Of a stretch of DNA of 64,000 nucleotides, positions 7,409 through 57,065 are shown piece after piece; position 1 is the stretch's first letter, and the number at the start of each line of letters is the position of its first letter. This stretch comes from a virus: the IMG/VR virus record IMGVR_UViG_3300036768_001490, positions 1 through 64,000 of that record. The stretch is one strand, 5' to 3'. Both the position numbers and the translations under genes were made by a program. The notes under the pieces were generated by a model, which made no database searches, was not told the origin of the DNA, and saw nothing but the letters and a program-made list of their open reading frames with translations.

Positions 7409-8719
7409 TCAGATGAACTTGGGGCCTGGCCAGTAAGAGTTCTCCTCCTTGAGGGCGCACAGGTCGGCGTCCACGTAGGGGATCAGGTGCATGTGGTGCC
7501 AGGCGGAGGGGTAGCCGTTGGACAGACGCACGGCCTGGAAGCGGCAGCGGATCTCCGGCACGTACTTGGCGAAGTTGCGGTCGGTCACGTACCAGAAGTT
7601 GTTGCTGGACCAGAAGCTCACGTGCGTTGGGTCCTGGTAGGCTCCGCGGCCGCAGCGGCCGCTGTCGTCGCAGACGGCTGGCGTGTGCGTGAGCAGGAAG
7701 CCTCCAGGCACCAGCAGGTCGTACAGGTGGTTCATGAGCCAGGGCACCCGGTTGGCGGGGATGTGCTCCAGGAAATCGAAGGCGCGGAAGCAGCCTACGG
7801 AGTTGGGCTTCAGGTAAGGGAAGAGTCCTTCGGGCTGGAGGACGTCGCACTGGATGCCCAGGGGGTGCTTCTTGACCGCGGGGTCGATGTCGATGGGGAT
7901 GTAGCCGTCCGGGCAGTTGTGCGCGCCGCCCAGGTCGTACATGGGCAGCTTCTCCCGCCGGCACCACTCCCGAACAAGGTCGTGCAACCAGCGGTCGCGG
8001 TGCTCGCGCGACCGGCGCTGGATCTCTTCCACGCGGACCTGGCACGTGGTCTGGCCATTCTGCCGGTGGAAGTAAAGCGGACGGTGGATATGCTCGAAGT
8101 GGATACCCTTGAGGTAGGTGCGGATGAGCAGTTCGTGGTCGTCCGCCACCGGCAGGTCCGGGTTATGCCCGCCGACCAGGCGGTACGCCTCCCGGCTCCA
8201 GACACGCACATGGTCTGGCGCGTACAGGATCTCACACAGGGAGCGTGGACCGATGGGATGGTGCTCGTTGACCTTGTAGTCGCGTCCCTTGTAGCTCCAG
8301 TCAAACTGGCGCCAGCCCCAGGCAGGCGAGTAGCACTGGCTCTCGTGCTTCATGTTGCAGCTGACATCGTCCGACCAGATGAAGCACAACCTGGGGCAGC
8401 GCTGGGCCGCCGCCACGACCTCCTCCAGGCAGTCATGTGTTATCAGGTCGTCGTGGTCGTACTCTAGCAGCAGGTCGCCGACTGCGTGGTCGCAGGCGAA
8501 ACGCTTGAGCGCACCGATGTTGGTCGCGTTGGAGCGCAGCAGGCGGACCCTGCCGTCTCCCTGAGTGATGTGTTCTACCGTCGTGGCGACCAGGTCGCTC
8601 TGGTCGCCGTTGGCGACGACGACCCATTCCCAGTCCTGGTATGTCTGTTCCTGCAAGCAGGCCCACACGTCTGGCAGCCATGCGGGATTGTGGCTGGGAG
8701 TGAATACACTGACTAACAT
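7409..8719 (-). CDS. GT2 glycosyltransferase fused to a class I SAM-methyltransferase-like domain
   Basis: LVSVFTPSHN...QTYQDWEWVVVANG...LLEYDHDD (GT2); DLGGAHN, FRAFDFLEHIP, LYDLLVPGG, AYQDPTH (MTase-like). TGATG-coupled to the fibre gene. Confidence 0.85.
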   Translation of the reverse strand: MLVSVFTPSHNPAWLPDVWACLQEQTYQDWEWVVVANGDQSDLVATTVEHITQGDGRVRLLRSNATNIGALKRFACDHAVGDLLLEYDHDDLITHDCLEEVVAAAQRCPRLCFIWSDDVSCNMKHESQCYSPAWGWRQFDWSYKGRDYKVNEHHPIGPRSLCEILYAPDHVRVWSREAYRLVGGHNPDLPVADDHELLIRTYLKGIHFEHIHRPLYFHRQNGQTTCQVRVEEIQRRSREHRDRWLHDLVREWCRREKLPMYDLGGAHNCPDGYIPIDIDPAVKKHPLGIQCDVLQPEGLFPYLKPNSVGCFRAFDFLEHIPANRVPWLMNHLYDLLVPGGFLLTHTPAVCDDSGRCGRGAYQDPTHVSFWSSNNFWYVTDRNFAKYVPEIRCRFQAVRLSNGYPSAWHHMHLIPYVDADLCALKEENSYWPGPKFI

Positions 8720-11508
8720 CAGCTGCTCTCTCTCCAGGAGTTCCAGAAACGCTGGTTCCGTTCCATGTCTGCGCGGGTGTGGCGGCGGAAGCGCCAGGTG
8801 TGGCCCTTGCGGACACCCGACAGCCGGACGGTCACGCAGTCCACTTCTCTGTCTGTCTGGACAACTAGTTCGTTGCCCTCTACGCGCGCTGCCACCAGGG
8901 CCAGGTGGCTGGGCACGGCGCCGACGGCCACGATGCTACCTTCTTCGCAAACGTCAAGGAAGATCGGGTCGATGCGTTGTCTCCACTGGAACGTTCTGCC
9001 AGAGGTGCTGCCTGGACGTGCCGTTACTACATGGACGACGTCCTCGAAGCGGACTTCCGGCATTTCCACACAGGCGAGAGCGACGAACTCTGGCTCGTCC
9101 CAGCCGTTCCTTCTACTGTACGGGACGATGGCTGTCTTTTCTCCAGCTGGGCCCTGGTACCCCTGGTGCCCCTGGTACCCCTGGTACCCCTGTTCCCCCT
9201 GATACCCCTGTTCCCCCTGGTACCCCTGGTACCCCTGGTACCCCTGTTCCCCCTGGTACCCCTGGTACCCCTGTGGACCTCCAGGGTCTCCCTGGTCTCC
9301 CTGATGACCTTGACTGCCCTGGTATCCCTGGTATCCCTGGTCTCCCTGGTCTCCCTGGTCTCCCTGATGACCTTGACTGCCCTGGTATCCCTGATGACCT
9401 TGACTGCCCTGGTATCCCTGATGACCTTGACTGCCCTGGTCTCCCTGGTATCCCTGGTTCCCCTGTTCCCCCTGTTCCCCCTGTTCCCCCTGGTACCCCT
9501 GGTGCCCCTGTTCCCCCTGTTCCCCCTGGTGCCCCTGGTACCCCTGGTGCCCCTGGTACCCCTGGTGCCCCTGGTACCCCTGGTCTCCCTGTGGACCCTG
9601 GTCTCCATCTGGCCCAGGGTCTCCCTGTGGACCCTGGTCTCCATCTGGCCCAGGGTCTCCCTGTGGACCCTGGTCTCCATCTGGCCCAGGGTCTCCCTGT
9701 GGACCCTGGTCTCCCTGTGGACCCTGGTCTCCATCTGGCCCAGGGTCTCCCTGTGGACCCTGGTATCCCTGTGGACCAGGGTCTCCCTGTGGACCCTGGT
9801 ATCCCTGTGGACCAGGGTCTCCCTGTGGACCCTGGTATCCCTGATAACCCTGGCTGCCCTGTCCGCCGCAGCGCGGCACTTGCAGGTCAATCGACAGTTC
9901 CCAGTCGCAGTCGGTTGCGTCCCGTACCTGACTGAAGCCGTAGACAAGGAAGCCGACGTCGCCGCAAGTGACTTCGCGGATGTCCAGGAACGGGTTCAGC
10001 TTGATGCAGGGGGCAACGGCGCCGATGTCCAGGCGCCAGATGCACTGGTCTGCCGGCCCGATCCGCTCGAACAGCCAGCTGATCGTCCCTGGGCCTGGTC
10101 TGGGACGTGGCCAGACGAAGCGGGGGTTGGCCGCGGCACGGAGTTCCGGACACGGTGCCCGGCTGTTGATCTCCAGGAACCAGTTGAAGCCGACGCGGTA
10201 GAAGTACCAGTGCGTGTAGCCACCCGCTCGGCCGAACCGGATCGGCGTGTAGCGTCCTGGCCTGCGCGGCAGGACTTCCGGGCAGTTGACCCGCAGCTGC
10301 GTGATGTCCACGTGGTACTGGCAGCCGGCGAGCCTGGCCACGCGCCAGCGGATGAAGCTGCCCGTGCCAGGGTCCACCCGTGTCTGCTCCAACCTGGGGC
10401 TGATCCGCGGGCAGGGCACGTCCAGGTAGATGTCCAGCTCGAAGTTGCACGACGGCTTCTTGGCGACGACGAAGGTTAGCTGGCCGGCGCCGAACGGGAC
10501 CGGCTTCGTCTTGAACGAGCTGGGCGCGATGCGCGGGCAGTGGTACTCGCCGCTGATGTCCAGCTCGAAGGTGCAGCCGATCTTTTTGAAGCGGAAGGAC
10601 AGCCGCGGCTCCCGGTTGGTGATCTCACGCAGCTTGGTTGTCCGCGTGGTCAGAGGCTGGATGGCAGGACACGGCGACGTGACGTCGATGTCCAGCTCGA
10701 ACTCGCACTCACCTGGCTTCTTTCTCTTGAACTCGTAGTTCAGCCGGCCGGTGGCTCTGTCGAAGCGGACGATCTTGGTTTCCCGGCGGCGTGGCTCCAC
10801 CTTGGGGCAGGGAGCCAGGACATGGATGTCCAGGTCGAAGGAGCACCCTACCTTGAAGAAGTAGAACCAGAGCCTGCCCACCGGCTTGTCGCTCAGGAAC
10901 CGGACGTACCGGCTACGGCCGGGCGGCAGAGGACGCACCTCCGGGCACGGCACGGAGACCTGGATGTCCAGGTCGTAGTCGCAGTTCGGCAGCTTCACGA
11001 AGCCGAAGCGGAGCGTACCGAGGCGGTTCCGGGAGAACGGCACTTCCCGGAAGCGAGAGGTCGGCTTGATCTTGGGGCAGTGTACCTGGGCGTCGATTTC
11101 CAGGAGCCAGTCGCAGTCCGGCAGCGGCACGAAGCCGAAGCGCAGCAGGGACGGCCCGTCCGTGAACGGGACGGAGCGCGTCTGCTGCCAGGACGGCTGC
11201 ATCTCCGGGCAGCGCACGTCGGCCTCGACCTCCAGCGCGAAGGAGCAGCAGGCTTCCTTGTGGACGGTCACATCGAGGCGTGGTGTCAGGTGGCGTCCTT
11301 GCTGGATGCTCGTCCGGGAGACAGACAGGTTGGGGCAGGGTGGCTCCGGTGGCAGTTCCGTGATGGGGGGACTGTCGCAGGCGGGTATGTCGGCCGGCGC
11401 CTCCGGGACGCTCGGGTCGCGGATCAGGTCTTCGCACGGAATGCGCGGCACGGGCTCGACCTGGCACTTTTCCGGGTCGAAGGCAAAATCATGCTGGTCG
11501 CCGGCCAT
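8719..11508 (-). CDS. Tail fibre-like protein: 11 Cys-bracketed ~45-aa repeats + Gly-X-Gln collagen + C-terminal globular domain
   Basis: Repeats C-x-[FYW]-x-L-[DE]-I-x4/5-C-P; about 80 Gly-X-Y triplets ([15 protein letters not shown]); C-terminal KTAIVP...[14 protein letters not shown] domain. Confidence 0.8.
9140..9868 (-). repeat. Collagen-like 9-bp-unit coding repeat with 18/36-bp higher-order duplications
   Basis: e.g. ccctgtggaccctggtctccatctggcccagggtct recurs between about 9590 and 9750. Confidence 0.92.
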
Positions 11509-21816: not shown

Positions 21817-21853
21817 AAAGAAAAAGGGCGGACGGTCCGTGGACCGCCCGCCC
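21817..21853 (-). terminator. Rho-independent terminator closing the matrixin/cytochrome cassette
   Basis: Minus strand GGGCGGGCGGTC-CACG-GACCGTCCGCCC (12 bp, one G-U) followed by TTTTTCTTT. Confidence 0.85.
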
Positions 21854-21894: not shown

Positions 21895-22587
21895 TCAATG
21901 ACAGCTCGGGCAGTCGGCTTGGCCCAGGCCCCGGCAGCCACGGTCGGAACGGTAGTTGACCTGCCGCTGCTGGCGAATGACCGCTTGCGGACGCTCCTGG
22001 ACGGTCACTCGCTCGATCACGCTGCGGAACTCCTGGTAGTTGGAGCCTTTCTCGCGCACCTGGTCCGAGCAGCAGCCGTCCGGGCAGGAAGCGGACCTGT
22101 CTTCCTGCTGTGTCACGTCAGCGGCCGGCGCCACGTAGCGGCGCTCGATCACCTCGGTGCGCACGGTCGCCGGGGCCGCGTAATAGTAGACCACGTTGTC
22201 TGGCACAAAGCGCACGTTGGCAGCGCTGTGGTTCGCAAAGCTGAACGTGTTCAGCTGGTTCAGCAGGCCGCGGGAGCGCCGGTCCACCAGCAGCTGCTCG
22301 CTGACGACGTGGCCAGGCACCACGTTGTTATGGACGACCAGTCTGCGCTGCCCGCTGCTGCTCACTGCGGCGGTCGCCGCGGCACCGCCTGTCGTGGTCA
22401 CGCGGGTCGTGCTGCGCCGGCCAAACAGGGCGCCGAGCAGGCCGCCGCTCCGCTCCGTCTGGGTCACTGTCTGCTGCGTGTTGCCGCTGCGGACAGCTAA
22501 AGAATTGCCCCGTGCGGCCTGCGGGCCGCCGGTGCCTACCAGCAGGGCGGCTGCCGTGCCGACAAGGGCAACCAGGGACTTGGGCAT
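21895..22587 (-). CDS. Secreted protein with Cys-rich C-terminus ending in CPSCH
   Basis: AAGGAGG RBS; signal-like MPKSLVALVGTAAALLVG; V/R/Q-rich body; SCPDGCC and terminal CxxCH (21898-21912). Confidence 0.7.
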   Translation of the reverse strand: MPKSLVALVGTAAALLVGTGGPQAARGNSLAVRSGNTQQTVTQTERSGGLLGALFGRRSTTRVTTTGGAAATAAVSSSGQRRLVVHNNVVPGHVVSEQLLVDRRSRGLLNQLNTFSFANHSAANVRFVPDNVVYYYAAPATVRTEVIERRYVAPAADVTQQEDRSASCPDGCCSDQVREKGSNYQEFRSVIERVTVQERPQAVIRQQRQVNYRSDRGCRGLGQADCPSCH

Positions 22588-22634
22588 CGTTTGCCTCCTT
22601 CTGTCTGTGCGCTGGTTGGGGGATGGGTGAAGTG

Positions 22635-23324
22635 TCATTCTCCCTTGGACAGGGCATACTGGAGGAGCGTGGCCAGGTGTTTGGGCTCCATTGCCTTGGA
22701 AGCGTCGTTGGCAGCGGTCGGCGGCATCGTACCGCTGGATGCCATGCCGTAAATCTTCCAGCGCTTGTCACTGCTGTGCCGGGCCAGGACCAGGCCGCCG
22801 CTGCCGTCGTCCAGGACCAGGCGGAACTCCGTGCCGTTGGGACCGCTGGCGCGCCCGGACGCACCGTGGCAGCCAAGGCAGTTGGCACGTCCCTGGTATG
22901 CCGCGATGACCTGCTGCTGGAGTTCCAGAGGAGTCGCCGTGTCCGGCGCCAGGGACTGGGGCTTGTTGGGCTGCTGGGGCTGGTTGGTGGACTGTGGACG
23001 TGGCGCTGTCGGCTGCGGCACGTTACCGGACACCAGGGCGCGCAGCTCCTCTCGGATGACGTCGCGGATGTAGGCTTTCTCGCGGTACGCCTCTCCGATG
23101 GAGTAGTAGTACGGCTGGCCGTAGGCGTACACGGGCACGGCCCGCGAGTCCACGGGCACGGTTACGACATAGGGAGCGACGGCGATCTCCTGGGCAATGA
23201 TCTTCTGCACGGGGTAGACCTGGGGTGCCGGCGCCGTGTAGGTGTGGGAGTAGTTGGAGCAAGGTACGCTCCGTTGGGGTTGCCCTGGCAGCAGTGCCAG
23301 GGCAAGGAACATGGCCGAGTGCAT
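22635..23324 (-). CDS. Secreted monoheme c-type cytochrome-like protein (planctomycete-type)
   Basis: Signal MHSAMFLALALLPG; Y/V/P-rich region; NCLGCHG (22866-22880); distal GTMPP (candidate Met ligand). Confidence 0.75.
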   Translation of the reverse strand: MHSAMFLALALLPGQPQRSVPCSNYSHTYTAPAPQVYPVQKIIAQEIAVAPYVVTVPVDSRAVPVYAYGQPYYYSIGEAYREKAYIRDVIREELRALVSGNVPQPTAPRPQSTNQPQQPNKPQSLAPDTATPLELQQQVIAAYQGRANCLGCHGASGRASGPNGTEFRLVLDDGSGGLVLARHSSDKRWKIYGMASSGTMPPTAANDASKAMEPKHLATLLQYALSKGE

Positions 23325-23337
23325 CCTTGCTCTCCTT

Positions 23338-25014
23338 TCACTTGTCAGGGCGCATTTTCCCGCTTTTGCGGCGTTCGAGCAAGAGCAACCCGGACTCCTG
23401 GAAGCCGCCGCGCTCCCAGGTATGGCGCGGTACGGGCACGCCGGAGAGGGCCAGGCGTCCCAGGCGTCCTTTGGTGGACCCTTCCGGGTAGTCGGGCGTG
23501 CCAGGACCGTAGGCGAGGGCGTCGGACAGCTCCTGGGCGTCCGTGCCCAGCTCGCGCGCCGCCTGGTCCAGCGTGACGGGCTTGTTGTACCAGGCCCGGA
23601 TTCGCTGGAAGCTCTGCACGCTCTCCTGCGGCGTCAGGCCCGTGCATTCACGGACGAACTCGGCATAGTTCTCCTGGTCCTGCTGGATCAGCTTCCGCAT
23701 CTTCTGCTCTTGCAGGTGGAACTGGTTGATCCGCTCCATGCGGCCGGCGTCGTAGGCATAGAGCTTGAGCCCCTCGCGCAAAAGCAGGGGCATCTCGTTG
23801 CGGTAGCCCAGGATGCCGACGTCGTGGCAGTGGATGCAGGAGCGTGGCGTGAGCAGAACCGTGTTGTGCGGACCGGACGGGTCTCCCTTGACCAGGAACG
23901 GGTTGGCGAAGTCCACCCCTTTGCCCTGGCCGTCGCTGAGGAAGTAATACTGGGCGCCGCGCTCGTCCTGGAAGATGTGTTCTCCGGCGTCGAACTTCAG
24001 CGGGAAGGGGTTCTGCACGAAGTCCTGGTCCCCGGCCGTGCGGAAGACATCGAAAGTGCGCCAGTAAATTCCGATCTTGCTACGCACGCGCCAGACGATG
24101 CGGTTGTTGTAAGCCACGCCGGACATGCCCTGGTCGATCAGCCCTCCCTTGTCGGTCGGGAACTCCTTGAGGTGGTCGAACTCCACCAGCCAGGCCGACT
24201 CGAACTCGGCCGCCGTGCGCGGCGCCTCGCCCTTGACCTTCGTTTTGACCTTCTTGACGACCTCGACCTCCTCCTCGTGCGGCCGCACGCTACCGTCCGT
24301 GTAGCGGTAGTTCACGACCTTCTTTTCCTTCACCTTCTTCTCGACCACGCGGTCAAAGGTGGCATTGGCGTACAGCAGCTGGTAGTAGAACGCCTTGGGG
24401 TTGAAGATCTCTGCTCCCTTGGCGTTGATGAACTCGCCGTTGTCGAAGACGTACCACAGCCACCAGTCACCGCGCACGACGGGGTTGGCCCGCGTCTCGT
24501 GCCGCAGGTAGTTCAGCCCCTTGGCGGCGCTGGGGATGATCGGCTCGCGGTAGTACGGGTCTTCCGCGGAGATATTCTCCCAGACCTGTGGCGACCAGTT
24601 GAACCAGCACAGGTCGATCCAGTAGATGCGGTTGTCCGTGTTGGGCACGGGCCGTGGCAGGTAAGTGATCGGCGTGCGCGCCGCGTCGTTGCACCCCTTG
24701 AACAGGGCGCTGGTAGCCGCGGGCAAGAGCTGCCGTGGCACCTCGGCCAGGCTGAAGAAGCGGATGCGGCAACGGTCCTTGTCGTTGACCGTGGCCAGGA
24801 ACTCGGCGCAGCGCTCGAAGATCTGCTCTGGGCTCCAGGCCGGAAACTCGGGCGTCAGCCGGTTGCGCAGGCGCTCCAGGTGCGGGTCGGGCGGCTTCTC
24901 GGCCTGCTTTGCCGCGTTCGTTCCCTGGGCAGGGGCCGGTGGCGCTGCTCCTTCTTGCGCCAGTAAGGCAACGGCTACCGTCGCCAGGCCAAGGACAGCG
25001 ACCAGCTGGCGCAT
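23338..25014 (-). CDS. Secreted 558-aa protein with a single CxxCH (c-type cytochrome domain, planctomycete-like)
   Basis: Signal MRQLVAVLGLATVAVALLAQE; DAGEHIF...GAQYYFLSDGQG...RSCIHCHDVG (23824-23838). Confidence 0.72.
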   Translation of the reverse strand: MRQLVAVLGLATVAVALLAQEGAAPPAPAQGTNAAKQAEKPPDPHLERLRNRLTPEFPAWSPEQIFERCAEFLATVNDKDRCRIRFFSLAEVPRQLLPAATSALFKGCNDAARTPITYLPRPVPNTDNRIYWIDLCWFNWSPQVWENISAEDPYYREPIIPSAAKGLNYLRHETRANPVVRGDWWLWYVFDNGEFINAKGAEIFNPKAFYYQLLYANATFDRVVEKKVKEKKVVNYRYTDGSVRPHEEEVEVVKKVKTKVKGEAPRTAAEFESAWLVEFDHLKEFPTDKGGLIDQGMSGVAYNNRIVWRVRSKIGIYWRTFDVFRTAGDQDFVQNPFPLKFDAGEHIFQDERGAQYYFLSDGQGKGVDFANPFLVKGDPSGPHNTVLLTPRSCIHCHDVGILGYRNEMPLLLREGLKLYAYDAGRMERINQFHLQEQKMRKLIQQDQENYAEFVRECTGLTPQESVQSFQRIRAWYNKPVTLDQAARELGTDAQELSDALAYGPGTPDYPEGSTKGRLGRLALSGVPVPRHTWERGGFQESGLLLLERRKSGKMRPDK

Positions 25015-25037: not shown

Positions 25038-26000
25038 TCAGGCAACTTTCTTGCCGTTCAGCCACACGGCATGGAACCGTCCCCGAACCACCAGCTCCGC
25101 TTCGCCTCCGGCCGCAGCGCCATCGGGCGGCGCCGGCGCGTCCTGGCGCGCGCCGTACCGCGCCTGGAAGCGGGGAATGTCGTCGTTCTCCTGGGGCACC
25201 TGGACCGCGGCGTTGTAGTAGGGGGCCATGAGGGCAGACGGCACCCTGCTGTGGTCCAGGCCGAACAGGTGGCCGAACTCGTGACAGGCCACGTTGAGCA
25301 GCAGGATACCGCGCCGCTTCGGGTCCAAGGTCCAGGTTTCGTCCGCGTCGAAGCGCATCAGGAGCTGGTTGTCTCTGCCGGTGGGCAGCTGGGCCCAGGC
25401 CAACGTGCCGCCGGGGCCATCGAAGTGGGACTGGGGTCCCTGGCCGGTGGCGATCAAGATGTCGGCCTTGCCCTGCTGCCGGACCGGCTCCACATTGATG
25501 TTGCCGTGGCGCGTCCATGCCTGGAAGGCTTCATGGACCGTGCTCTCGAAGTCGGTCCGGGAGATCCCCGGGACGTATTCCAGGATAAAGTACGTGAGGC
25601 GGTCCTTTTGCCAGCGCGGCAGGTTGGCACGGATGAACTGCCGCACGGTGTCGGACGGGTGGCCAGCACGGGCGTGCTCCGGGAAGCCGCAGCGCGGCGC
25701 CGTCATCGCGCGCACGGTCTGGACGCAGACCTTGCCGGTGCGCGGCAGACCGAACCAGGACTGGAAGTCCTTGATAGCGGCGACGATGTCGTCGGCCTGG
25801 ATGTCGCGCCAGCTGGCCAGTTCCTGCGGCAGGTAGCCGAAGGTGTCGAGGTAGGACAGGACGAAGCGGGCGACCTGTGCGTCCGGCGCGTGCCCCCGGT
25901 GGCAGCGGCGCCGTGGCCGGCCGGTGCAGTGGCTGTCCTTCGCCCCTGCCTCCATGTGTTGCAAGAGAAGGTTGACTGCCTTCTGGTTGACGGCTGCCAT
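25038..26000 (-). CDS. Matrixin (M10A, MMP-like) zinc metallopeptidase with PG-binding-like prodomain and cysteine switch
   Basis: YLDTFGYL...AAIKDFQSWFGLPRTG prodomain; PRCGFPE switch; WQKDRLTY; FDGPGGTLA; FDADETWT; HEFGHLFGLDH; ALMAPYY Met-turn. Confidence 0.92.
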   Translation of the reverse strand: MAAVNQKAVNLLLQHMEAGAKDSHCTGRPRRRCHRGHAPDAQVARFVLSYLDTFGYLPQELASWRDIQADDIVAAIKDFQSWFGLPRTGKVCVQTVRAMTAPRCGFPEHARAGHPSDTVRQFIRANLPRWQKDRLTYFILEYVPGISRTDFESTVHEAFQAWTRHGNINVEPVRQQGKADILIATGQGPQSHFDGPGGTLAWAQLPTGRDNQLLMRFDADETWTLDPKRRGILLLNVACHEFGHLFGLDHSRVPSALMAPYYNAAVQVPQENDDIPRFQARYGARQDAPAPPDGAAAGGEAELVVRGRFHAVWLNGKKVA

Positions 26001-26031
26001 GCGCGCCTCCTTACGTCGCCTGGGTCGCCAC

Positions 26032-27684
26032 CTACATGTCGGACGGGACCGTCGCAGCCACCGAGATGCCGATGTCTTCGGGAGAGATGAAGAACTGCAC
26101 AGTCCGCGCACTGACCATGCTCGCTGGCTCATCGGGCACGTCCAGCCTCTCGCTACTGCGCAGGTAGCGGACCGAACTGTCGGGATACCGGATGCGTCCC
26201 AGCATGTCAATAGCAGACACGGTCTGGTCGTTGCGCAGGTAGGCGTGGACCACGTCTTGCAGGCGCGACGCATCGAGCCGTCCGATGAAGCCGATGCGGT
26301 TGATCTCGGTGGCCAAGGCGTCCCGGATGCGGTCCAGGTCCGGGTCGGGCTCGCCGGAGCGCTTGTGGATGGTGAAATGCAGCTGGACGAAGCAGGGCAC
26401 GGGGGCCTTGACCAGCAGGTCGTGCGTCGCCGGCCGTTGCTCGCGCGTGCTGAAGTAGTCCTGGATGTCGGCCAGCAGCGGCATGAGGCGGGCCTCCAGC
26501 TCGTACTCCTTCCGGGCGCCGAGGTCGAGGGAGCTGGTGTCCGTTTCCGTGTCATGGAACTGGACCGTGCCGGCCTGGTAGCGGCTGTAGACCCACTCGA
26601 CGGAGTCCGGCAGCACGTCTGGAATGAAGCCTGGGCCGGTCAGGTCTGCCACGCGCGTGTCGCGGACGAGAGGGAATCCTCCCGCTGCCGGCGCGGACCG
26701 CCGGGGGCGGATGTTGCCGACCTCGTAGTAGCCGGGTGCCTCGTCCCGGCCGATGGAGAATTGCCAGATGCCGCTACCGTCCGGGCGCTTCTCCACCAGC
26801 ACGGCCTCCTTGACCAGGAGCTGGCGGTGGACCTGCTCCTGGCTACGGACATACCAATCGACGCGGCCGCCTCCGGCCACGGGGAAGATCCAGTGCCGGT
26901 CCCGGCGCATCTCCGGGTCGCCGTAGCCGACCACGGACAGGTGGACGATGTGTGCGAACGCCTCCACGTCGCGCAGCGTGGCGGACATGTGGACGCGTCC
27001 GGCCAGCCCCTTGGCGGCGATGCCTTCTTGCAGGCGCAGCAGGAGTTCCTGGTTGGTTTCTGCCCGGCGGCCGCCCTGGAAGTCCTGGGAGGCGAACGAA
27101 GTGACGTAGGCGGTGGGCGGGGACAGGGGCACGACCAGGGTGTCCTTCTTGATCTCGTACTCTTCCCCCTCTTCTTCCGCTTCCACCTCGATGGTGAAGG
27201 CGAAATGGCCGTCGCCCGTGGGCGACAGCAGACGGTCGCCTGGCTCGTTGATGCTGGACTCTTCCACCTTGGCCGAGAACACGCGCGTGGCAAGGAAGCG
27301 CTTGCCCTGGGCCTCGAACACGCTTCCGGCCGCAATGGTGACGGTGACGTCGTCGCGCAGGATGATGGTCACATGGCCCCTGGCCCGGCTGCCTGGCTTG
27401 CGCCGCAGCCGGTAGTTGGACAGCACGTCATCGACCAAATCGGGGTCCGCCAGGAGGGGGTCGGCCTCCAGGGCGCGCAGGCTGCGCGCCAGCCAGTAGT
27501 CCTGGATGCTGGCCTGCCGTTGCGTCTCCAGAACCGCGTGGTAATAGGCCAGCAGTTCGGCAAAGACGCCGCGGCGGACGTCCAAGTGGGGATTGTCTTC
27601 CTGGATGCGCTGGAGGATCTCGGTCAGGTTCTGTTCCACCTGGTCCGGGTCCAGCTGTGCCAGGGGCCGAAGTCGGATCGTCAT
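26032..27684 (-). CDS. Baseplate J-like wedge protein (gpJ/gp6)
   Basis: LSNYRLRRKPGSRARGHVTI, TIAAGSVF, FQGGRRAETNQELLLRL; follows the gp25-like gene. Confidence 0.85.
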   Translation of the reverse strand: MTIRLRPLAQLDPDQVEQNLTEILQRIQEDNPHLDVRRGVFAELLAYYHAVLETQRQASIQDYWLARSLRALEADPLLADPDLVDDVLSNYRLRRKPGSRARGHVTIILRDDVTVTIAAGSVFEAQGKRFLATRVFSAKVEESSINEPGDRLLSPTGDGHFAFTIEVEAEEEGEEYEIKKDTLVVPLSPPTAYVTSFASQDFQGGRRAETNQELLLRLQEGIAAKGLAGRVHMSATLRDVEAFAHIVHLSVVGYGDPEMRRDRHWIFPVAGGGRVDWYVRSQEQVHRQLLVKEAVLVEKRPDGSGIWQFSIGRDEAPGYYEVGNIRPRRSAPAAGGFPLVRDTRVADLTGPGFIPDVLPDSVEWVYSRYQAGTVQFHDTETDTSSLDLGARKEYELEARLMPLLADIQDYFSTREQRPATHDLLVKAPVPCFVQLHFTIHKRSGEPDPDLDRIRDALATEINRIGFIGRLDASRLQDVVHAYLRNDQTVSAIDMLGRIRYPDSSVRYLRSSERLDVPDEPASMVSARTVQFFISPEDIGISVAATVPSDM

Positions 27685-28100
27685 GGCGACGCCCTCGCTG
27701 TCCGGTCTGGCCGCAGAGCGGCGAAGAACGTGACGCGCTGCACCGGTCCGTCCAGCCAGCCGCCTGCCGGGTGTGGGTCATGCGCGAACTCGAAGCCATC
27801 GTCCCAGCGCGTGAGTCCCACGACGGCGTGGGGCCAGTCTCCTCGCGGGCTCTTACCGCTCAGGATGACGGGCACGCCGGGCGTCATGGCCGTCACGGAC
27901 CGGCCTTCCGGAGGCAGGCGTACCTCCACGGCCAGCAGGTTACGGCGGGACAGCCATTCCTGGAGACGGCGCCACCAGCCGGGACCGGCGGCCTGGAAAT
28001 TAGGCACGTCGTCCAGGTCGAGGATCATGGCCACGCAGGTGGCAAAGCAGTCGCTGCGTTCCGGGTCATTTGTGATGCGCTGGTAGCGTTGTCGGATCAT
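27681..28100 (-). CDS. Small papain-fold (C39-like) cysteine peptidase
   Basis: SDCFATCVAMIL (Cys), PHAVV (His), HDPHP (Asp); ATGA-coupled at both ends. Confidence 0.6.
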   Translation of the reverse strand: MIRQRYQRITNDPERSDCFATCVAMILDLDDVPNFQAAGPGWWRRLQEWLSRRNLLAVEVRLPPEGRSVTAMTPGVPVILSGKSPRGDWPHAVVGLTRWDDGFEFAHDPHPAGGWLDGPVQRVTFFAALRPDRTARASP

Positions 28101-28582
28101 CGCACCGGCACCTGGATCGGGGTGATGAGGGAGTAACTTGTTCCTGCTTTGCTTTCCACCAGCAGGCGGATGGACACCTTGTCGCCTGCCAGGGTCACGC
28201 CGGTCAAGGTCAGGTTGCCGTAGCGCTCGTCGTCGGGGTCGCTGTCCGACTCGATGGCACGCAGCTGGCGGGCCACGTCCAGTCGGGCGGACGAGAACGA
28301 CTGCTGCACGTCGGCCACGGTGCGCCACAGCCCCATCTGGGCATCCGTCATGAACAGGGTGCCCTCACGCGGCCGGTACTGGCGCGAGCCGAGCGGTGTC
28401 AGCAGCACGAGCAGGACGCGCTGGGCCAACTTCTGGATGCCCGTGACCAGGGAGCCGCCGTCGTTGGCACGGACCAGTTCCTGGGCCAGCAGCTGGGGCC
28501 GGCCGCGGTACACCGGGCCTATGGCCTGGAAGGCTAGCAGGTCGCTGGTGCGGCCGACGTGGTCCAGGACCGTGCCTGCCAT
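28097..28582 (-). CDS. Baseplate wedge/sheath-initiator protein (gp25/gpW-like)
   Basis: GIQKLAQRVLLVLLTPLGSRQYRPREGT...DDERY...VTLAGDKVSIRLLV. Confidence 0.8.
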   Translation of the reverse strand: MAGTVLDHVGRTSDLLAFQAIGPVYRGRPQLLAQELVRANDGGSLVTGIQKLAQRVLLVLLTPLGSRQYRPREGTLFMTDAQMGLWRTVADVQQSFSSARLDVARQLRAIESDSDPDDERYGNLTLTGVTLAGDKVSIRLLVESKAGTSYSLITPIQVPVR

Positions 28583-55421: not shown

Positions 55422-57065
55422 CTAGATGAGGGGCGATTCCGCAATGACCGTCTCGCTGCCGTCTCCCCACAGGGCGACCAGCTGCGAGCGCGTCCCCATG
55501 CCGCTGCTCAGGCTCAGGCTGCCCGTGTCGTTGCGCAGGTAAAGACGGACCCGGTTGGGCAATGGTATCTGGGGCGCCGGGATCTCTTCCAGCTCGATGT
55601 AGTCGCCGATTCCCACTCCCTGGGCTCCCTGGGCTCCCTGGGCTCCCTGGGCGCCACCGCTGCTGCTGTGCGTGAAGCTGAGGACCACCTGGTCGTTCGC
55701 GGCAAAGGAGCCGTTGCCGGTGATGTAGGACACCGTGAACTTGCGGTAGCCGTTGCCGTTTATCACGTTGCCGCTGACAACGTAGACGGCGAACCGGCTG
55801 CTGTCATCTTCCTTGAAGATGCGCAGGATGCCTCGGTGGGAGACCGGGCCCGTGTCGTCGAAGCTGTCCAGCCAAGAGGTCCGGTCCGCCAGCAGGCGGT
55901 CCAGGTTGTCGGCGTAGATGGTCGTGACCGAGGACGGGACGGCGTGGTCGTAGCGCAGGTAGCCGGGCCCCGGGTCCGAGTCCAGCAGAGACGAGGAGAA
56001 CGTGTATGGCGCGCTGTTGCCGCCGGCGTCTCCCCGGCTGCCCTGTGCCCCTGGCACGCCCTGGGCGCCTTGCGCCCCAGGTGGTCCCTGCGCCCCCTGG
56101 TCGCCCTGGAAGCCGGCGTCTCCGGGGCTGCCCTGCGCCCCCTGGGAACCTGTGGCTCCAGGCTGTCCCTGCTCGCCGGCGGGGCCCTGGGGGCCCTGGA
56201 GTCCGGTGCTGCCGGCAGGCCCCTGTTCCCCCGGCACGCCCTGGGCTCCCTGCGGACCAGGGTCGCCCTGTGCCCCCTGGTTCCCCTGGTAGCCCTGGTC
56301 GCCCGGGATGCCTGGCTCCCCCTGGAACCCCTGGGCTCCCACGGCGCCCTGGGCGCCTGTCTCACCCTGCGGTCCCATCGGACCCTGGGCCCCCACGGCG
56401 CCCTGGGCACCTACCGGACCTTGCATGCCCATTGGACCCTGGGCCCCTGTTGGCCCCTGGGGACCAGCATCTCCCTGTTTCCCCTGGGCACCGCTCAGGC
56501 CGGCCATGCCTTGCCTGCCCTGTGCCCCCTGGCTGCCCTGGGCGCCCACGGCACCCTGGGGACCGGCCGGCCCCACCGCGCCTTGGGCGCCGGCCACCCC
56601 CTGCGGCCCCTGGGGACCGGCACTTCCCTGCTTGCCCTGTGCTCCTTGGCTGCCCTGTACGCCGGCTGGACCCTGCGCCCCCACCACTCCCTGGGCGCCG
56701 ACCGGACCCTGAGCCCCCGTCTGGCCCTGGGGGCCTGCTGGGCCCTGCGCCCCCACTGTGCCCTGGGCGCCGACCGGACCCTGAGCCCCCGTCGGACCCT
56801 GGGGGCCTGCTGGTCCCGTGGCGCCGGGCGGACCCTGCTGGCCCGTGGCACCCTGGGCGCCCTGTGGACCTGGACTGCCCTGGCTGCCCTGGAAGCCGTG
56901 CGCTGGCCCCTGGAATCCCTGGGCGCCGACTGGACCGGGCTGGCCCTGGTATCCCTGGTGGCCACGGATGCCTTGGTAGCCGCGTAGTCCCCGCGGGCCC
57001 TGGCTCCCCTGAAAGCCGCGCACGCCGCTGGGACCGGGCGGGCCTTCCCGAGCGGTGGTTGTCAT
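55422..57065 (-). CDS. Collagen-like head fibre (about 110 Gly-X-Y triplets + globular domain + short second collagen)
   Basis: GPQ/GAQ-dominated; [19 protein letters not shown] domain; located among head genes. Confidence 0.85.

What the first reader, a model, noticed from the sequence alone, without database searches (positions are those of the whole stretch)
25038..26000. Phage-encoded matrix-metalloproteinase zymogen with cysteine switch but an apparently lost structural-zinc site
Seen: PG-binding-like prodomain, PRCGFPE (MMP consensus PRCGxPD), HEFGHLFGLDH and ALMAPYY. Positions that carry His ligands of the structural Zn in MMPs read AWA (consensus AHA) and RFD (consensus HFD). There is no obvious signal peptide, unlike its three neighbours. 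Inference: a latent protease activated later, either a virion or lysis enzyme for a protein-rich cell envelope or a maturase for the two collagen-like fibres encoded by this phage.
Basis: partly seen in the sequence, partly recalled or inferred. Interest (0 to 1): 0.72.

Follow-up and report, generated by a model that had tools for sequence, protein, structure and literature searches.

The report
Phage pro-matrixin lacking structural zinc
An uncultured ~200-kb phage encodes a full matrix-metalloproteinase-type zymogen (prodomain, cysteine switch, intact active site) from a large, undescribed phage clade in which the second, structural zinc site is replaced by Trp/Arg; it travels with exported haem-motif proteins in phages that show no ordinary endolysin, so it may be a latent lysis or entry protease.

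Summary
Window 25038-26000 (-) encodes a 320-aa protein with a full-length Peptidase_M10 domain (E 1e-33), a PG_binding_1-type prodomain, PRCGFPE, HEFGHLFGLDHS and ALMAPYY. Its AlphaFold model (pLDDT 90) matches proMMP-9/-10/-1/-3 zymogens best.

The lost structural-zinc site is a family trait, not decay. Among 265 homologues, Trp replaces the LAHA His in 208, Arg/Lys replaces the HFD His in 199, and the cysteine switch is kept in 231. Cellular bacterial and animal MMPs keep all four ligands. The family is essentially viral and absent from 50,697 deposited phage genomes.

In at least 12 related jumbo-phage loci the gene sits directly behind Baseplate_J. It also occurs in small phages without Baseplate_J. 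There, as here, it is followed by exported proteins with an invariant CxxCH (window 23338-25014, 22635-23324, 21895-22638), and the window's four genes end at a strong terminator.

None of 17 cassette-bearing viral records matched Phage_lysozyme, SLT or Amidase_2, and in the seven jumbo-phage records tested the matrixin is the only PG_binding_1 protein.

Best reading (about 0.45): a cytoplasmically latent, late-expressed envelope protease that acts at lysis. Rivals are a baseplate-borne entry enzyme and an accessory cassette. The collagen-fibre maturase idea is not supported. Another first-stage note on this same window had already flagged the cassette.

The parts
25038..26000 (-). Pro-matrixin gene, 320 aa (P0002), no signal peptide
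   Evidence: ORF and translation. Peptidase_M10 E 1.1e-33 plus PG_binding_1. AF2 pLDDT 89.9; best folds are proMMP-9/-10/-1/-3.
25869..26000 (-). N-terminal extension (aa 1-44) in place of a signal peptide. The helix at aa 6-22 is conserved within the jumbo-phage clade.
   Evidence: Alignment A1; DSSP and pLDDT of the model.
25704..25853 (-). PG_binding_1-like three-helix prodomain (aa 50-99)
   Evidence: Pfam 28.1 bits. It is the only PG_binding_1 match in the 182.7-kb record.
25677..25697 (-). Cysteine switch PRCGFPE (aa 102-108). R103 and C104 are invariant.
   Evidence: RCG is present in 231 of 263 family domains. It aligns with PRCGV(P/K)D of human and arthropod MMPs.
25152..25616 (-). 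Matrixin catalytic domain (aa 129-283)
   Evidence: Pfam profile 1-159/159. Foldseek TM 0.78-0.85 to MMP catalytic domains.
25353..25397 (-). Former structural-zinc site. W202 replaces the LAHA His and R216 replaces the HFD His. The first two ligands (H, D of HGD) are removed by a 3-residue deletion. The calcium-site residues D194, G195, G198, D218 and E221 are kept.
25251..25283 (-). Catalytic zinc motif HEFGHLFGLDH (H240, E241, H244, H250), followed by S251
   Evidence: Invariant in A1. Ser follows the third His in 237 of 249 cases.
25215..25235 (-). Met-turn ALMAPYY (M258 invariant)
25041..25151 (-). Pro/Ala-rich linker and a ~20-aa C-terminal beta-hairpin tail (function unknown, possibly a docking element)
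   Evidence: Alignment A1 columns 340-428; model strands at aa 313-318, pLDDT 65-79.
26001..26031 (-). 31-nt gap after the Baseplate_J stop, containing AAGGAGG. No terminator lies in it, so the gene is probably co-transcribed with the late baseplate genes.
26032..27684 (-). Baseplate_J-like wedge protein, the fixed upstream neighbour in the jumbo-phage clade
   Evidence: Pfam and PHROG; synteny in 12 loci.
23338..25014 (-). Cassette gene 2: exported 558-aa protein with an invariant CxxCH (C393, C396, H397). No Pfam family.
   Evidence: AF2 pLDDT 90.6. Weak resemblance to cytochrome c'-beta/P460 around the motif. Structural neighbours in the Atlas are PSCyt1-bearing proteins.
22635..23324 (-). 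Cassette gene 3: exported 229-aa protein with CLGCH and sub-threshold Cytochrom_C/PSCyt1 similarity
   Evidence: A gene of the same position, size and motif is present in six other loci.
21895..22638 (-). Cassette gene 4: exported 247-aa protein ending in CPSCH. Its start overlaps the stop of gene 3.
21826..21853 (-). Strong intrinsic terminator (12-bp stem, 10 G-C pairs, T-run) that closes the cassette

Best explanation
Shown: the gene encodes a genuine matrixin-type (M10A-like) zymogen. It has a PG_binding_1-like three-helix prodomain, an invariant PRCG cysteine switch, an intact HExxHxxGxxHS zinc site and a Met-turn. It belongs to a large, essentially viral clade. In this clade the four structural-zinc ligands of all characterised MMPs are gone: a 3-residue deletion removes two, an invariant Trp replaces the third and Arg/Lys replaces the fourth. 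The neighbouring calcium-site residues are kept.

Inferred: it is a one-zinc enzyme whose S-loop is held by a Trp-Arg/Lys contact instead of a metal. It is made late, from the baseplate operon, in the cytoplasm, and has no export signal. While the Cys104 thiolate caps the catalytic zinc it stays latent, which would protect phage and host proteins during assembly.

Most likely (the least certain step): it reaches the envelope only when the inner membrane is breached at the end of infection. There the switch is opened by thiol oxidation or modification in the oxidising periplasm, or by cleavage near the conserved Q-F upstream of the catalytic domain. The enzyme then cuts envelope substrates, either peptidoglycan peptides, wall-anchored proteins or a proteinaceous wall layer. 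It would act alongside the co-encoded exported CxxCH (probably haem c) proteins and stand in for the conventional endolysin that these phages appear to lack.
For: Identity and latency: Pfam M10 plus PG_binding_1. proMMP-1 is the top PDB sequence hit, aligned through the prodomain. The AF2 model has pLDDT 89.9, and the best Foldseek hits are pro-forms of MMP-9/-10/-1/-3 with TMt 0.80-0.85. R103, C104, H240, E241, H244, H250, S251 and M258 are invariant.

Zinc-site loss across the family: (W+R in 96, W+K in 84). H-bearing sequences cluster apart on a tree.

Viral origin: 80 viral loci. Only one close relative was found in 185,579 species genomes.

Late operon: 31-nt gap with an RBS and no terminator before the gene, and a strong terminator after gene 4.

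Envelope link: no signal peptide in 222 of 224 family members, while the downstream partners are always exported or membrane proteins. These are CxxCH proteins in 16 loci, and TM, signal-anchor or lipoprotein genes in the second jumbo subclade.

Lysis reading: it is the only PG_binding_1 protein in the own record and in 6 relatives. No endolysin family appeared among 136 ORFs of the genome. Phage_lysozyme, SLT and Amidase_2 scored 0 of 17, M15_4 0 of 16 by direct family search, plus none in the own record's ORF scan. In two small phages the cassette lies a few kb upstream of the large terminase subunit, after a replication gene (L054) or a tail-fibre gene (L064), which is where lambdoid lysis genes lie. 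An N-terminal PG_binding_1 followed by a C-terminal catalytic domain is the layout of KZ144-type jumbo-phage endolysins (established knowledge).
Against: No holin or spanin was identified. In 33 other viral loci the commonest neighbour families are glycosyltransferases, SSB and DUF1501, not lysis genes.

The absence of endolysins has no positive control among viral records. The only two extra records that could be searched also carry matrixins. Controls for GH19 and GH108 were silent. Many records are 28-84% complete. Sub-threshold M23 hits exist in >1000-aa proteins of two relatives.

No M10 peptidase is known to cut peptidoglycan. The fixed position behind Baseplate_J in the jumbo clade fits a virion enzyme equally well.

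Enzyme activity is untested.
Confidence: 0.45

Rival explanations
1. Virion-borne entry enzyme. The zymogen is built into or onto the baseplate, perhaps docked through its C-terminal hairpin. It is kept inert toward the virion's own proteins by the cysteine switch, and is activated when the tail tip reaches the oxidising periplasm. It then cuts a wall or surface-layer barrier, playing the role of the T4 gp5 lysozyme.
For: The gene lies directly after Baseplate_J, in the order gp25-like, Baseplate_J, matrixin, in at least 12 jumbo-phage loci at 45-57% identity. The gap is 31 nt with no terminator. There is no export signal. The Pro-rich linker and short C-terminal hairpin are conserved. No tail-associated lysin family was found either.
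Against: The same gene, with the same partners, occurs in 10 viral records that have no Baseplate_J. In two of these it sits upstream of terminase rather than in a tail module. Its cassette partners carry signal peptides, so they cannot be virion parts. The protein is free-standing, whereas known tail lysins are usually domains of structural proteins.
Confidence: 0.25
2. Accessory (moron-type) cassette unrelated to lysis or entry. The protease and the exported haem-motif proteins together remodel the infected cell's surface or surroundings. Possible effects are receptor removal or superinfection exclusion, release from a protein-rich matrix or biofilm, or scavenging. The protease would be freed only when the cell bursts.
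For: The cassette moves as a unit between unrelated phages with GC 0.37-0.68. It has its own strong terminator. In the second jumbo subclade its downstream part is swapped for other envelope-directed genes. Relatives of gene 2 are PSCyt1-type proteins of Planctomycetota and Myxococcota, that is, host-like genes. DUF1501 genes, which I recall as partners of such proteins in planctomycetes, lie near matrixins in 4 viral loci.
Against: The matrixin itself is retained in every jumbo relative examined, which is unusual for an optional moron. This reading does not explain why the phages lack recognisable endolysins.
Confidence: 0.2
3. Maturase or trimming enzyme for the phage's own collagen-like fibres.
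For: Two collagen-like ORFs lie in the window. Four of five jumbo relatives also have collagen-like genes. Some MMPs cut collagen (established knowledge).
Against: A 93%-complete relative (G012) with the matrixin in the same place has no collagen-like gene. Five smaller matrixin-bearing records have none above cut-off. The protein has no hemopexin or fibronectin-II exosite domain, which true collagenases use. The partner genes are exported, not virion proteins.
Confidence: 0.04
4. A catalytically inert matrixin fold retained as a binding or structural module.
For: Loss of a canonical metal site could point to degeneration. No activity data exist.
Against: Every catalytic residue, the Met-turn and the autoinhibitory cysteine are invariant at 42-62% overall identity, and across 191 clusters at E <= 1e-30. 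Such conservation of an inhibitor of the active site makes sense only if the site is active.
Confidence: 0.03

Closest known systems
Animal pro-MMPs (human proMMP-1 1su3, proMMP-3 1slm, proMMP-9 8k5v, proMMP-10 9csx; arthropod MMP-14-like proteins P0311-P0321)
   Same: Three-helix PG_binding_1-type prodomain, PRCGxPD cysteine switch, Q-F before the catalytic domain, HExxHxxGxxHS, Met-turn (ALMAP, as in the arthropod enzymes) and S-loop calcium ligands. Identity is 36-38% over pro- plus catalytic domains. These are the best fold matches.
   Different: No signal peptide, no hemopexin domain and no furin site. All four structural-zinc ligands are absent (deletion, Trp, Arg/Lys). There is a 44-aa N-terminal extension, a 4-residue insert before the former HFD, and a Pro-rich C-terminal tail. 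The gene is encoded by a phage.
Karilysin of Tannerella forsythia (PDB 2xs3, 4in9, 8b2q), the characterised bacterial MMP
   Same: A prokaryote-associated matrixin catalytic domain, matched at E about 1e-21.
   Different: From my own knowledge, not tested here: karilysin is secreted, has a short propeptide that blocks the zinc with an Asp rather than a Cys-switch prodomain, and keeps the structural zinc.
Canonical bacterial matrixins in cellular genomes (e.g. loci L085-L087, L089; Cyclobacteriaceae, Pseudomonadota and Poriferihabitaceae MAGs)
   Same: PRCG switch, HExxHxxGxxHS and Met-turn.
   Different: They keep HGD...LAHA...HFD and are only 30-32% identical to the phage protein, which is less than animal MMPs are.
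MMPs of insect viruses (iridovirus, nudivirus, ascovirus, granulovirus, entomopoxvirus) and a few phage proteins annotated as matrixin or M10 (Maribacter phage Colly_1, Synechococcus phage P60 L0CNS5, uncultured Caudovirales)
   Same: Virus-encoded matrixin folds; these are the best BFVD matches, with E down to 6e-17.
   Different: The insect-virus enzymes act on animal tissue. The named phage proteins are distant (12-18% identity, E 3e-5 to 0.08). Neither tblastn of 50,697 phage genomes nor PHROGs finds this family.
Modular endolysins of jumbo phages of Gram-negative hosts (phiKZ gp144 type: N-terminal PG_binding_1, C-terminal catalytic domain)
   Same: Domain order, lack of a signal peptide, late expression, and being the only PG_binding_1 protein of the genome.
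   Different: The catalytic domain is a metzincin protease rather than a glycosidase, amidase or M15/M23 peptidase. The PG_binding_1 module carries an autoinhibitory cysteine. Muralytic activity is untested.
Phage P1 Lyz and other SAR endolysins (works-like analogue)
   Same: A lysis enzyme held inactive through a cysteine and switched on by thiol chemistry once it is free in the periplasm (established knowledge). This is the logic proposed here.
   Different: Unrelated fold, with a disulfide-caged catalytic Cys and a membrane-tethered SAR domain. The case here would be thiolate-zinc capping with no membrane anchor.

Membership tests
Matrixins (MEROPS M10A / Pfam PF00413) | Full-length match to the family profile above the curated threshold | tested here: met
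   116.8 bits against a cut-off of 24, profile 1-159/159; 119 bits in the six-frame search.
Matrixins (MEROPS M10A / Pfam PF00413) | HExxHxxGxxH zinc motif with Ser after the third His | tested here: met
   HEFGHLFGLDHS, invariant in A1. Ser is present in 237 of 249 family domains.
Matrixins (MEROPS M10A / Pfam PF00413) | Met-turn (ALMxP) beneath the catalytic zinc | tested here: met
   ALMAPYY with M258 invariant; M-A-P in 216 homologues.
Matrixins (MEROPS M10A / Pfam PF00413) | Prodomain with PRCGxPD cysteine switch | tested here: met
   PRCGFPE aligned to PRCGVPD of proMMP-1/-3/-10. R103 and C104 are invariant. The best fold matches are zymogens and include the prodomain.
Matrixins (MEROPS M10A / Pfam PF00413) | Structural zinc site (His, Asp, His, His in the S-loop and strands IV-V) | tested here: not met
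   All four positions lack a ligand: a 3-residue deletion, then W202 and R216. This holds across the family. I therefore file it as a distinct one-zinc variant of the family, not as a canonical MMP.
Matrixins (MEROPS M10A / Pfam PF00413) | S-loop calcium ligands (FDGPGG ... FDxDE) | tested here: met
   D194, G195, G198, D218 and E221 are invariant and align with the MMP residues. This is by sequence only.
Matrixins (MEROPS M10A / Pfam PF00413) | Secretion signal (MMPs are extracellular enzymes) | tested here: not met
   No N-terminal hydrophobic run here or in 222 of 224 relatives.
Matrixins (MEROPS M10A / Pfam PF00413) | Zinc-dependent endopeptidase activity that is latent until the switch opens | not testable with these tools
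   Needs the recombinant enzyme.
Serralysins (M10B) | HExxHxxGxxHP, a Tyr zinc ligand after the Met-turn, and a C-terminal RTX domain | tested here: not met
   Ser rather than Pro follows the third His, and there is no Peptidase_M10_C or RTX match. NCBIfam serralysin scored 15 bits against a cut-off of 500.
Modular phage endolysins (PG_binding_1 plus catalytic domain) | N-terminal PG_binding_1 cell-wall-binding module | tested here: met
   28.1-30.5 bits against a cut-off of 23. MMP prodomains match the same Pfam model, so this does not show peptidoglycan binding.
Modular phage endolysins (PG_binding_1 plus catalytic domain) | Catalytic domain from a family with known peptidoglycan-hydrolase activity | tested here: not met
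   The only catalytic domain is Peptidase_M10. I know of no M10 member that cleaves peptidoglycan.
Modular phage endolysins (PG_binding_1 plus catalytic domain) | Sits in a lysis cassette with a holin and spanins | tested here: inconclusive
   No holin or spanin family was matched. The second jumbo subclade has TM, signal-anchor and lipoprotein genes after the matrixin, with a faint Rz-like hit at E 0.07. In L054 the cassette lies between replication genes and terminase, and in L064 it lies upstream of terminase.
Modular phage endolysins (PG_binding_1 plus catalytic domain) | Muralytic activity | not testable with these tools
   Needs an assay on sacculi.
Virion/tail-associated lysins | Encoded in the tail or baseplate module | tested here: inconclusive
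   Met in 12 or more jumbo loci. Not met in 10 smaller records that lack Baseplate_J.
Virion/tail-associated lysins | Present in the virion | not testable with these tools
   Needs virion proteomics. No cultured relative is known.

The most novel reading that the evidence does not exclude
A whole group of uncultured phages, probably of Planctomycetota-like or other hosts with protein-rich envelopes, has no glycosidase or amidase endolysin. These phages instead lyse, or enter, their hosts with a one-zinc matrix-metalloproteinase zymogen. Its cysteine switch would act as a compartment sensor, opened in the periplasm with the help of co-encoded exported haem c proteins. That would be a new kind of lysis system and the first redox-gated MMP outside animals.
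Probability: 0.22. Interest if true: 0.85.

Novelty: new variant of a known kind. Interest (0 to 1): 0.66.

Why it matters
A recent survey of MMP evolution states that all MMPs carry a catalytic zinc, a structural zinc and a structural calcium, and it does not mention viruses (PMC12587646). This clade counts 191 clusters at E <= 1e-30 in a 50%-identity library, nearly all with Trp plus Arg/Lys at the structural-zinc positions. It therefore shows that the matrixin fold and its cysteine-switch latency can do without the second zinc. That is a natural experiment for MMP folding and stability.

The clade is also closer to animal MMPs (36-38% identity) than to canonical bacterial ones (30-32%). This bears on the debated history of transfers between animals and microbes, and on counts of "microbial" MMPs in metagenomes, many of which may be viral.

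For phage biology, the gene marks a set of phages with no recognisable endolysin and a conserved protease-plus-haem-protein cassette. That offers a concrete, testable candidate for how phages breach unusual envelopes.

Tried and rejected
- **Synteny look-up.** Synteny was obtained from viral-contig loci instead.
- **Deposited phage genomes.** tblastn of the protein found nothing at E 1e-5 or at E 1, and a short-form relative found nothing at E 1e-3. PHROGs and NCBIfam gave no usable family.
- **Literature.** Searches on phage plus matrixin or cysteine switch found no description of such a phage enzyme. The review by Marino-Puertas et al. is not held.
- **Gene 2 (558 aa).** It has no Pfam, PHROG or NCBIfam family and no Foldseek PDB match. 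There are only weak VIA-align matches to cytochrome c'-beta/P460 (Z 3.9-5.7), which I treat as a lead.
- **Head-maturation protease role.** My PF03420 search was silent, but so was its control, so this is inconclusive. The Cys-switch zymogen and its baseplate or terminase-side context do not suggest a prohead protease.
- **Collagen-fibre maturase role.** Rejected.
- **Redox-partner theme in the second jumbo subclade.** A thioredoxin-like CPPC lipoprotein occurs in only one locus, L005, so it is not a pattern.
- **Subclade-2 island genes.** They have no homologue anywhere in this genome.
- **Positive control for endolysin absence.** It failed. Only two further viral records were held, and both carry matrixins.
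- **Model geometry.** Coordinates are not exposed, so Cys-zinc-site and Trp-Arg distances could not be measured.
Full report
**1. What is there**

The window is the first 64 kb of a 182,719-bp IMG/VR virus record, estimated 84% complete. On the minus strand, 25038-26000 encodes a 320-aa protein. Its ATG lies 31 nt after the stop of a Baseplate_J gene (26032-27684) and 5 nt after AAGGAGG.

- Pfam gives a full-length Peptidase_M10 (matrixin) match, 116.8 bits, profile 1-159/159 at aa 129-283. It also gives PG_binding_1 at aa 50-99.
- phmmer against PDB sequences ranks proMMP-1, proMMP-10 and proMMP-3 first (E 3.5e-34 to 1.6e-30). The alignments start in the prodomain and include PRCG.
- An AlphaFold2 model built on 40 homologues has pLDDT 89.9 and pTM 0.85.
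- Its best Foldseek matches in the PDB are the zymogen forms of MMP-9, -10, -1 and -3 (E about 1e-16, target TM 0.80-0.85, about 250 aligned columns). Catalytic-domain-only entries follow.

**2. The missing structural zinc is a family character**

In the HMMER alignment to proMMP-1, the chain index plus 19 gives standard MMP-1 numbering. H168-R169-D170 fall in a 3-residue gap of the phage protein, H183 aligns with W202, and H196 aligns with R216. A MAFFT alignment gives the same answer. It included arthropod MMP-14-like proteins returned by the 'longer' search and canonical bacterial homologues from fetched loci:
- animal GEHGDGDPFDGPGGTLAHA...AHFD
- phage GQGPQ---SHFDGPGGTLAWA...MRFD

.

In a 40-sequence alignment of phage relatives (42-62% identity), the following are invariant: W202; R103 and C104; H240, E241, H244, H250 and S251; M258; and the calcium-site residues D194, G195, G198, D218 and E221.

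Over 265 homologues, the LAHA position is W in 208 and H in 12. The HFD position is R or K in 199. RCG is present in 231. W pairs with R in 96 and with K in 84.

On a FastTree of 278 catalytic domains, the 11 H-bearing sequences need only 2 changes of state. The rare Y/F variants are scattered within the W clade. The clade therefore made the replacement once and has kept it.

I infer that Trp plus Arg/Lys (hydrophobic or cation-pi packing) takes the place of the metal. I could not measure this because model coordinates are not exposed. The S-loop is the least confident part of the catalytic domain (pLDDT 77-78).

**3. Who has it**

- The word-indexed search found 335 relatives of similar length, on contigs up to 239 kb.
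- The exhaustive search of 1.84 billion cluster representatives found 191 at E <= 1e-30.
- A scan of IMG/VR returned 80 loci.
- A scan of one genome for each of 185,579 prokaryote species returned a single close relative. It is 49% identical, sits on a 25.6-kb contig of a MAG, and has the same cassette partner. Otherwise only canonical matrixins at 29-32% identity appeared.
- Those cellular homologues keep HGD...LAHA...HFD.
- The phage protein is more similar to arthropod MMPs (35.6-38.1% identity, 119-151 bits) than to these bacterial ones (30-32%, 79-87 bits).
- tblastn against 50,697 deposited phage genomes finds nothing, even at E <= 1, and PHROGs has no family for it.
- Shorter relatives of about 200-230 aa are common on other, mostly smaller viral contigs. 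They carry the same LAWA/KFD signature and either a mini-propeptide with RCG or none.
- BFVD fold matches are the MMPs of insect viruses and a few distant phage proteins.

**4. Context**

In at least 12 jumbo-phage loci the gene order is conserved: 611-aa protein, sigma factor, 150-aa protein, gp25-like, Baseplate_J, matrixin, and later a 515-aa protein.

Between the matrixin and the 515-aa gene, this phage and its nearest relatives (L002, L003) carry three exported proteins, each with one CxxCH:
- 23338-25014, CIHCH
- 22635-23324, CLGCH
- 21895-22638, C-terminal CPSCH

The spacings are 23, 13 and -4 nt. A strong terminator (12-bp stem, 10 G-C pairs) lies at 21826-21853.

The 558-aa protein has no Pfam family. 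Its homologues sit beside a matrixin in 16 loci, which include small phages, proviruses and two MAG contigs, with GC from 0.37 to 0.68. C393, C396 and H397 are invariant down to 23% identity. A second, smaller exported CxxCH protein follows in six of these loci. Ten such records have no Baseplate_J, so the cassette moves independently of the baseplate module.

The model of the 558-aa protein is confident (pLDDT 90.6) but has no Foldseek match in the PDB. VIA-align gives weak but repeated matches of residues about 264-440, which include the CxxCH, to cytochrome c'-beta and P460 (Z 5.7, 5.0, 4.1, 3.9, 3.9). The ESM Atlas lists structural neighbours (TM about 0.70) among PSCyt1-bearing proteins of Planctomycetota and Myxococcota. 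These are leads. The haem-c reading rests mainly on the invariant CxxCH plus the signal peptide.

The second jumbo subclade (L005-L015) keeps the matrixin in the same place but follows it with different genes. These are a small TM protein, a signal-anchored protein, a 273-374-aa protein with papain-like Cys and His motifs, and a lipoprotein or membrane-anchored protein. None has a database family, and none has a homologue in this genome.

The constant is therefore a signal-less, switch-bearing protease followed by envelope-directed proteins.

**5. What it probably does**

The strict conservation of the autoinhibitory cysteine together with every catalytic residue argues for an active enzyme that must be kept silent where it is made, in the cytoplasm. 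It has no export signal (222 of 224 relatives). It can therefore reach a substrate outside the cytoplasm in only two ways: when the membrane is breached at lysis, or as cargo of the virion.

Several observations favour lysis.
- It is the only PG_binding_1 protein in this record and in six relatives, five of them 93-100% complete.
- A Pfam scan of 136 ORFs covering the genome shows no lysozyme, transglycosylase, amidase, M15, M23, NlpC/P60 or CHAP domain.
- Direct family searches and, for Amidase_2 in the own record, that ORF scan give 0 of 17 cassette-bearing records for Phage_lysozyme, SLT and Amidase_2. M15_4 gives 0 of 16 by direct search.
- In L054 the cassette lies between a DnaC-like loader and the large terminase subunit. 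In L064 it lies between a tail-fibre gene and terminase, which is where lambdoid lysis genes sit.
- An N-terminal PG_binding_1 followed by a C-terminal catalytic domain is the layout of jumbo-phage endolysins such as phiKZ gp144 (established knowledge).
- A thiol capping zinc would stay closed in the reducing cytoplasm and could open in the oxidising periplasm. This is analogous in logic to the cysteine-gated SAR endolysins (established knowledge; the analogy is my inference).

The caveats are serious.
- The absence of endolysins lacks a viral positive control.
- Two Pfam controls were silent.
- Many records are incomplete.
- No holin or spanin was recognised.
- In 33 other loci the commonest neighbour families are glycosyltransferases, SSB and DUF1501 rather than lysis genes.
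- No M10 enzyme is known to cut peptidoglycan.

The baseplate position in the jumbo clade keeps a virion-enzyme reading alive at about 0.25. A non-lytic accessory role with the haem proteins stands at about 0.2. The collagen-fibre maturase idea fails on distribution and on the lack of collagen-binding exosites.

**6. Known or new**

By homology this is a matrixin. It fails two canonical features, the structural zinc and secretion, so I class it as a new variant of a known kind rather than an ordinary member.

I found no paper that describes a phage matrixin zymogen or a matrixin without the structural zinc. A 2025 survey of MMP evolution states that all MMPs have the structural zinc, and it does not mention viruses.

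Another first-stage note on this same window had already flagged the four-gene cassette (e1-5815471), and I confirmed it independently. A further note guessed a Planctomycetota host (e1-5815475). That fits the Atlas neighbours and the DUF1501 association but is not shown.

**7. Verdict**

The function is unresolved between lysis, entry and accessory roles, with lysis ahead. Interest is 0.66. This is a clean, testable case of a one-zinc, cysteine-switched MMP clade in phages that seem to lack ordinary lysins.

Noticed in passing
window 21895-25014 (-): Three consecutive exported proteins each carry one CxxCH (CIHCH, CLGCH, C-terminal CPSCH). The 558-aa one defines a Pfam-less, mostly viral family with an invariant CxxCH and a confident fold that has no Foldseek PDB match. 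Its Atlas neighbours are PSCyt1 proteins of Planctomycetota and Myxococcota.
   Followed up: partly
window 22636-22638 and 22587 region (-): The start of the 247-aa gene overlaps the stop of the 229-aa gene (ATGA). Its N-terminus reads TDRRRQTMPKSLVALVG..., which could be a twin-arginine-type signal. That would be odd for a haem c protein.
   Followed up: no
L005-L015, about 800-4000 nt after the matrixin (e.g. L009:11590-12492, L005:11720-12841): The second jumbo subclade replaces the CxxCH genes with a TM protein, a signal-anchored protein, a 273-374-aa protein with papain-like motifs (...GSCQGNS... / ...GGHAMC...) and a lipoprotein. None has a Pfam or PHROG family. This may be a lysis-type island.
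   Followed up: partly
whole record G000 and 18 other matrixin-bearing viral records: No Phage_lysozyme or Amidase_2 match in any of 19 records. No SLT match in any of the 17 tested. No M15_4 match in the 16 tested. Only sub-threshold M23 hits appear, in >1000-aa proteins of G011 and G012.
   Followed up: partly
window 8719-11508 (-) and 55422-57065 (-): Two collagen-like proteins with 64+16 and 97+16 uninterrupted G-X-Y triplets. Relative G013 has a 3030-aa collagen-like ORF.
   Followed up: partly
G000 beyond the window (L105-L111): The Pfam scan shows tubulin/FtsZ-like, Ro60/TROVE plus vWA, caspase (Peptidase_C14), CAP/SCP, class II RNR with ATP-cone, ThyX, SbcCD-like, Hint modules, RNAP beta-prime domains, and many glycosyl- and sulfotransferases.
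   Followed up: no
viral loci near W-variant matrixins (A6 set): DUF1501 proteins (4 members, best E 3.7e-72) and Cytochrome_CBB3-type proteins (2) lie within about 2.3 kb of matrixins in non-jumbo viral contigs. SSB (6) and GT1/GT4 (8) also recur there.
   Followed up: no
P0122 (1214 aa), P0182, P0219, P0254: Long metagenomic proteins carry two to four matrixin stretches of this clade (P0122: 4 stretches, E 2e-83). Their architecture was not examined.
   Followed up: no
window 27681-28328 (-) versus 28097-28582 (-): A 215-aa ORF overlaps the gp25-like gene by about 230 nt in another frame, and both give tblastn matches in L002. The overlap may only reflect DNA conservation and a later true start.
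   Followed up: no
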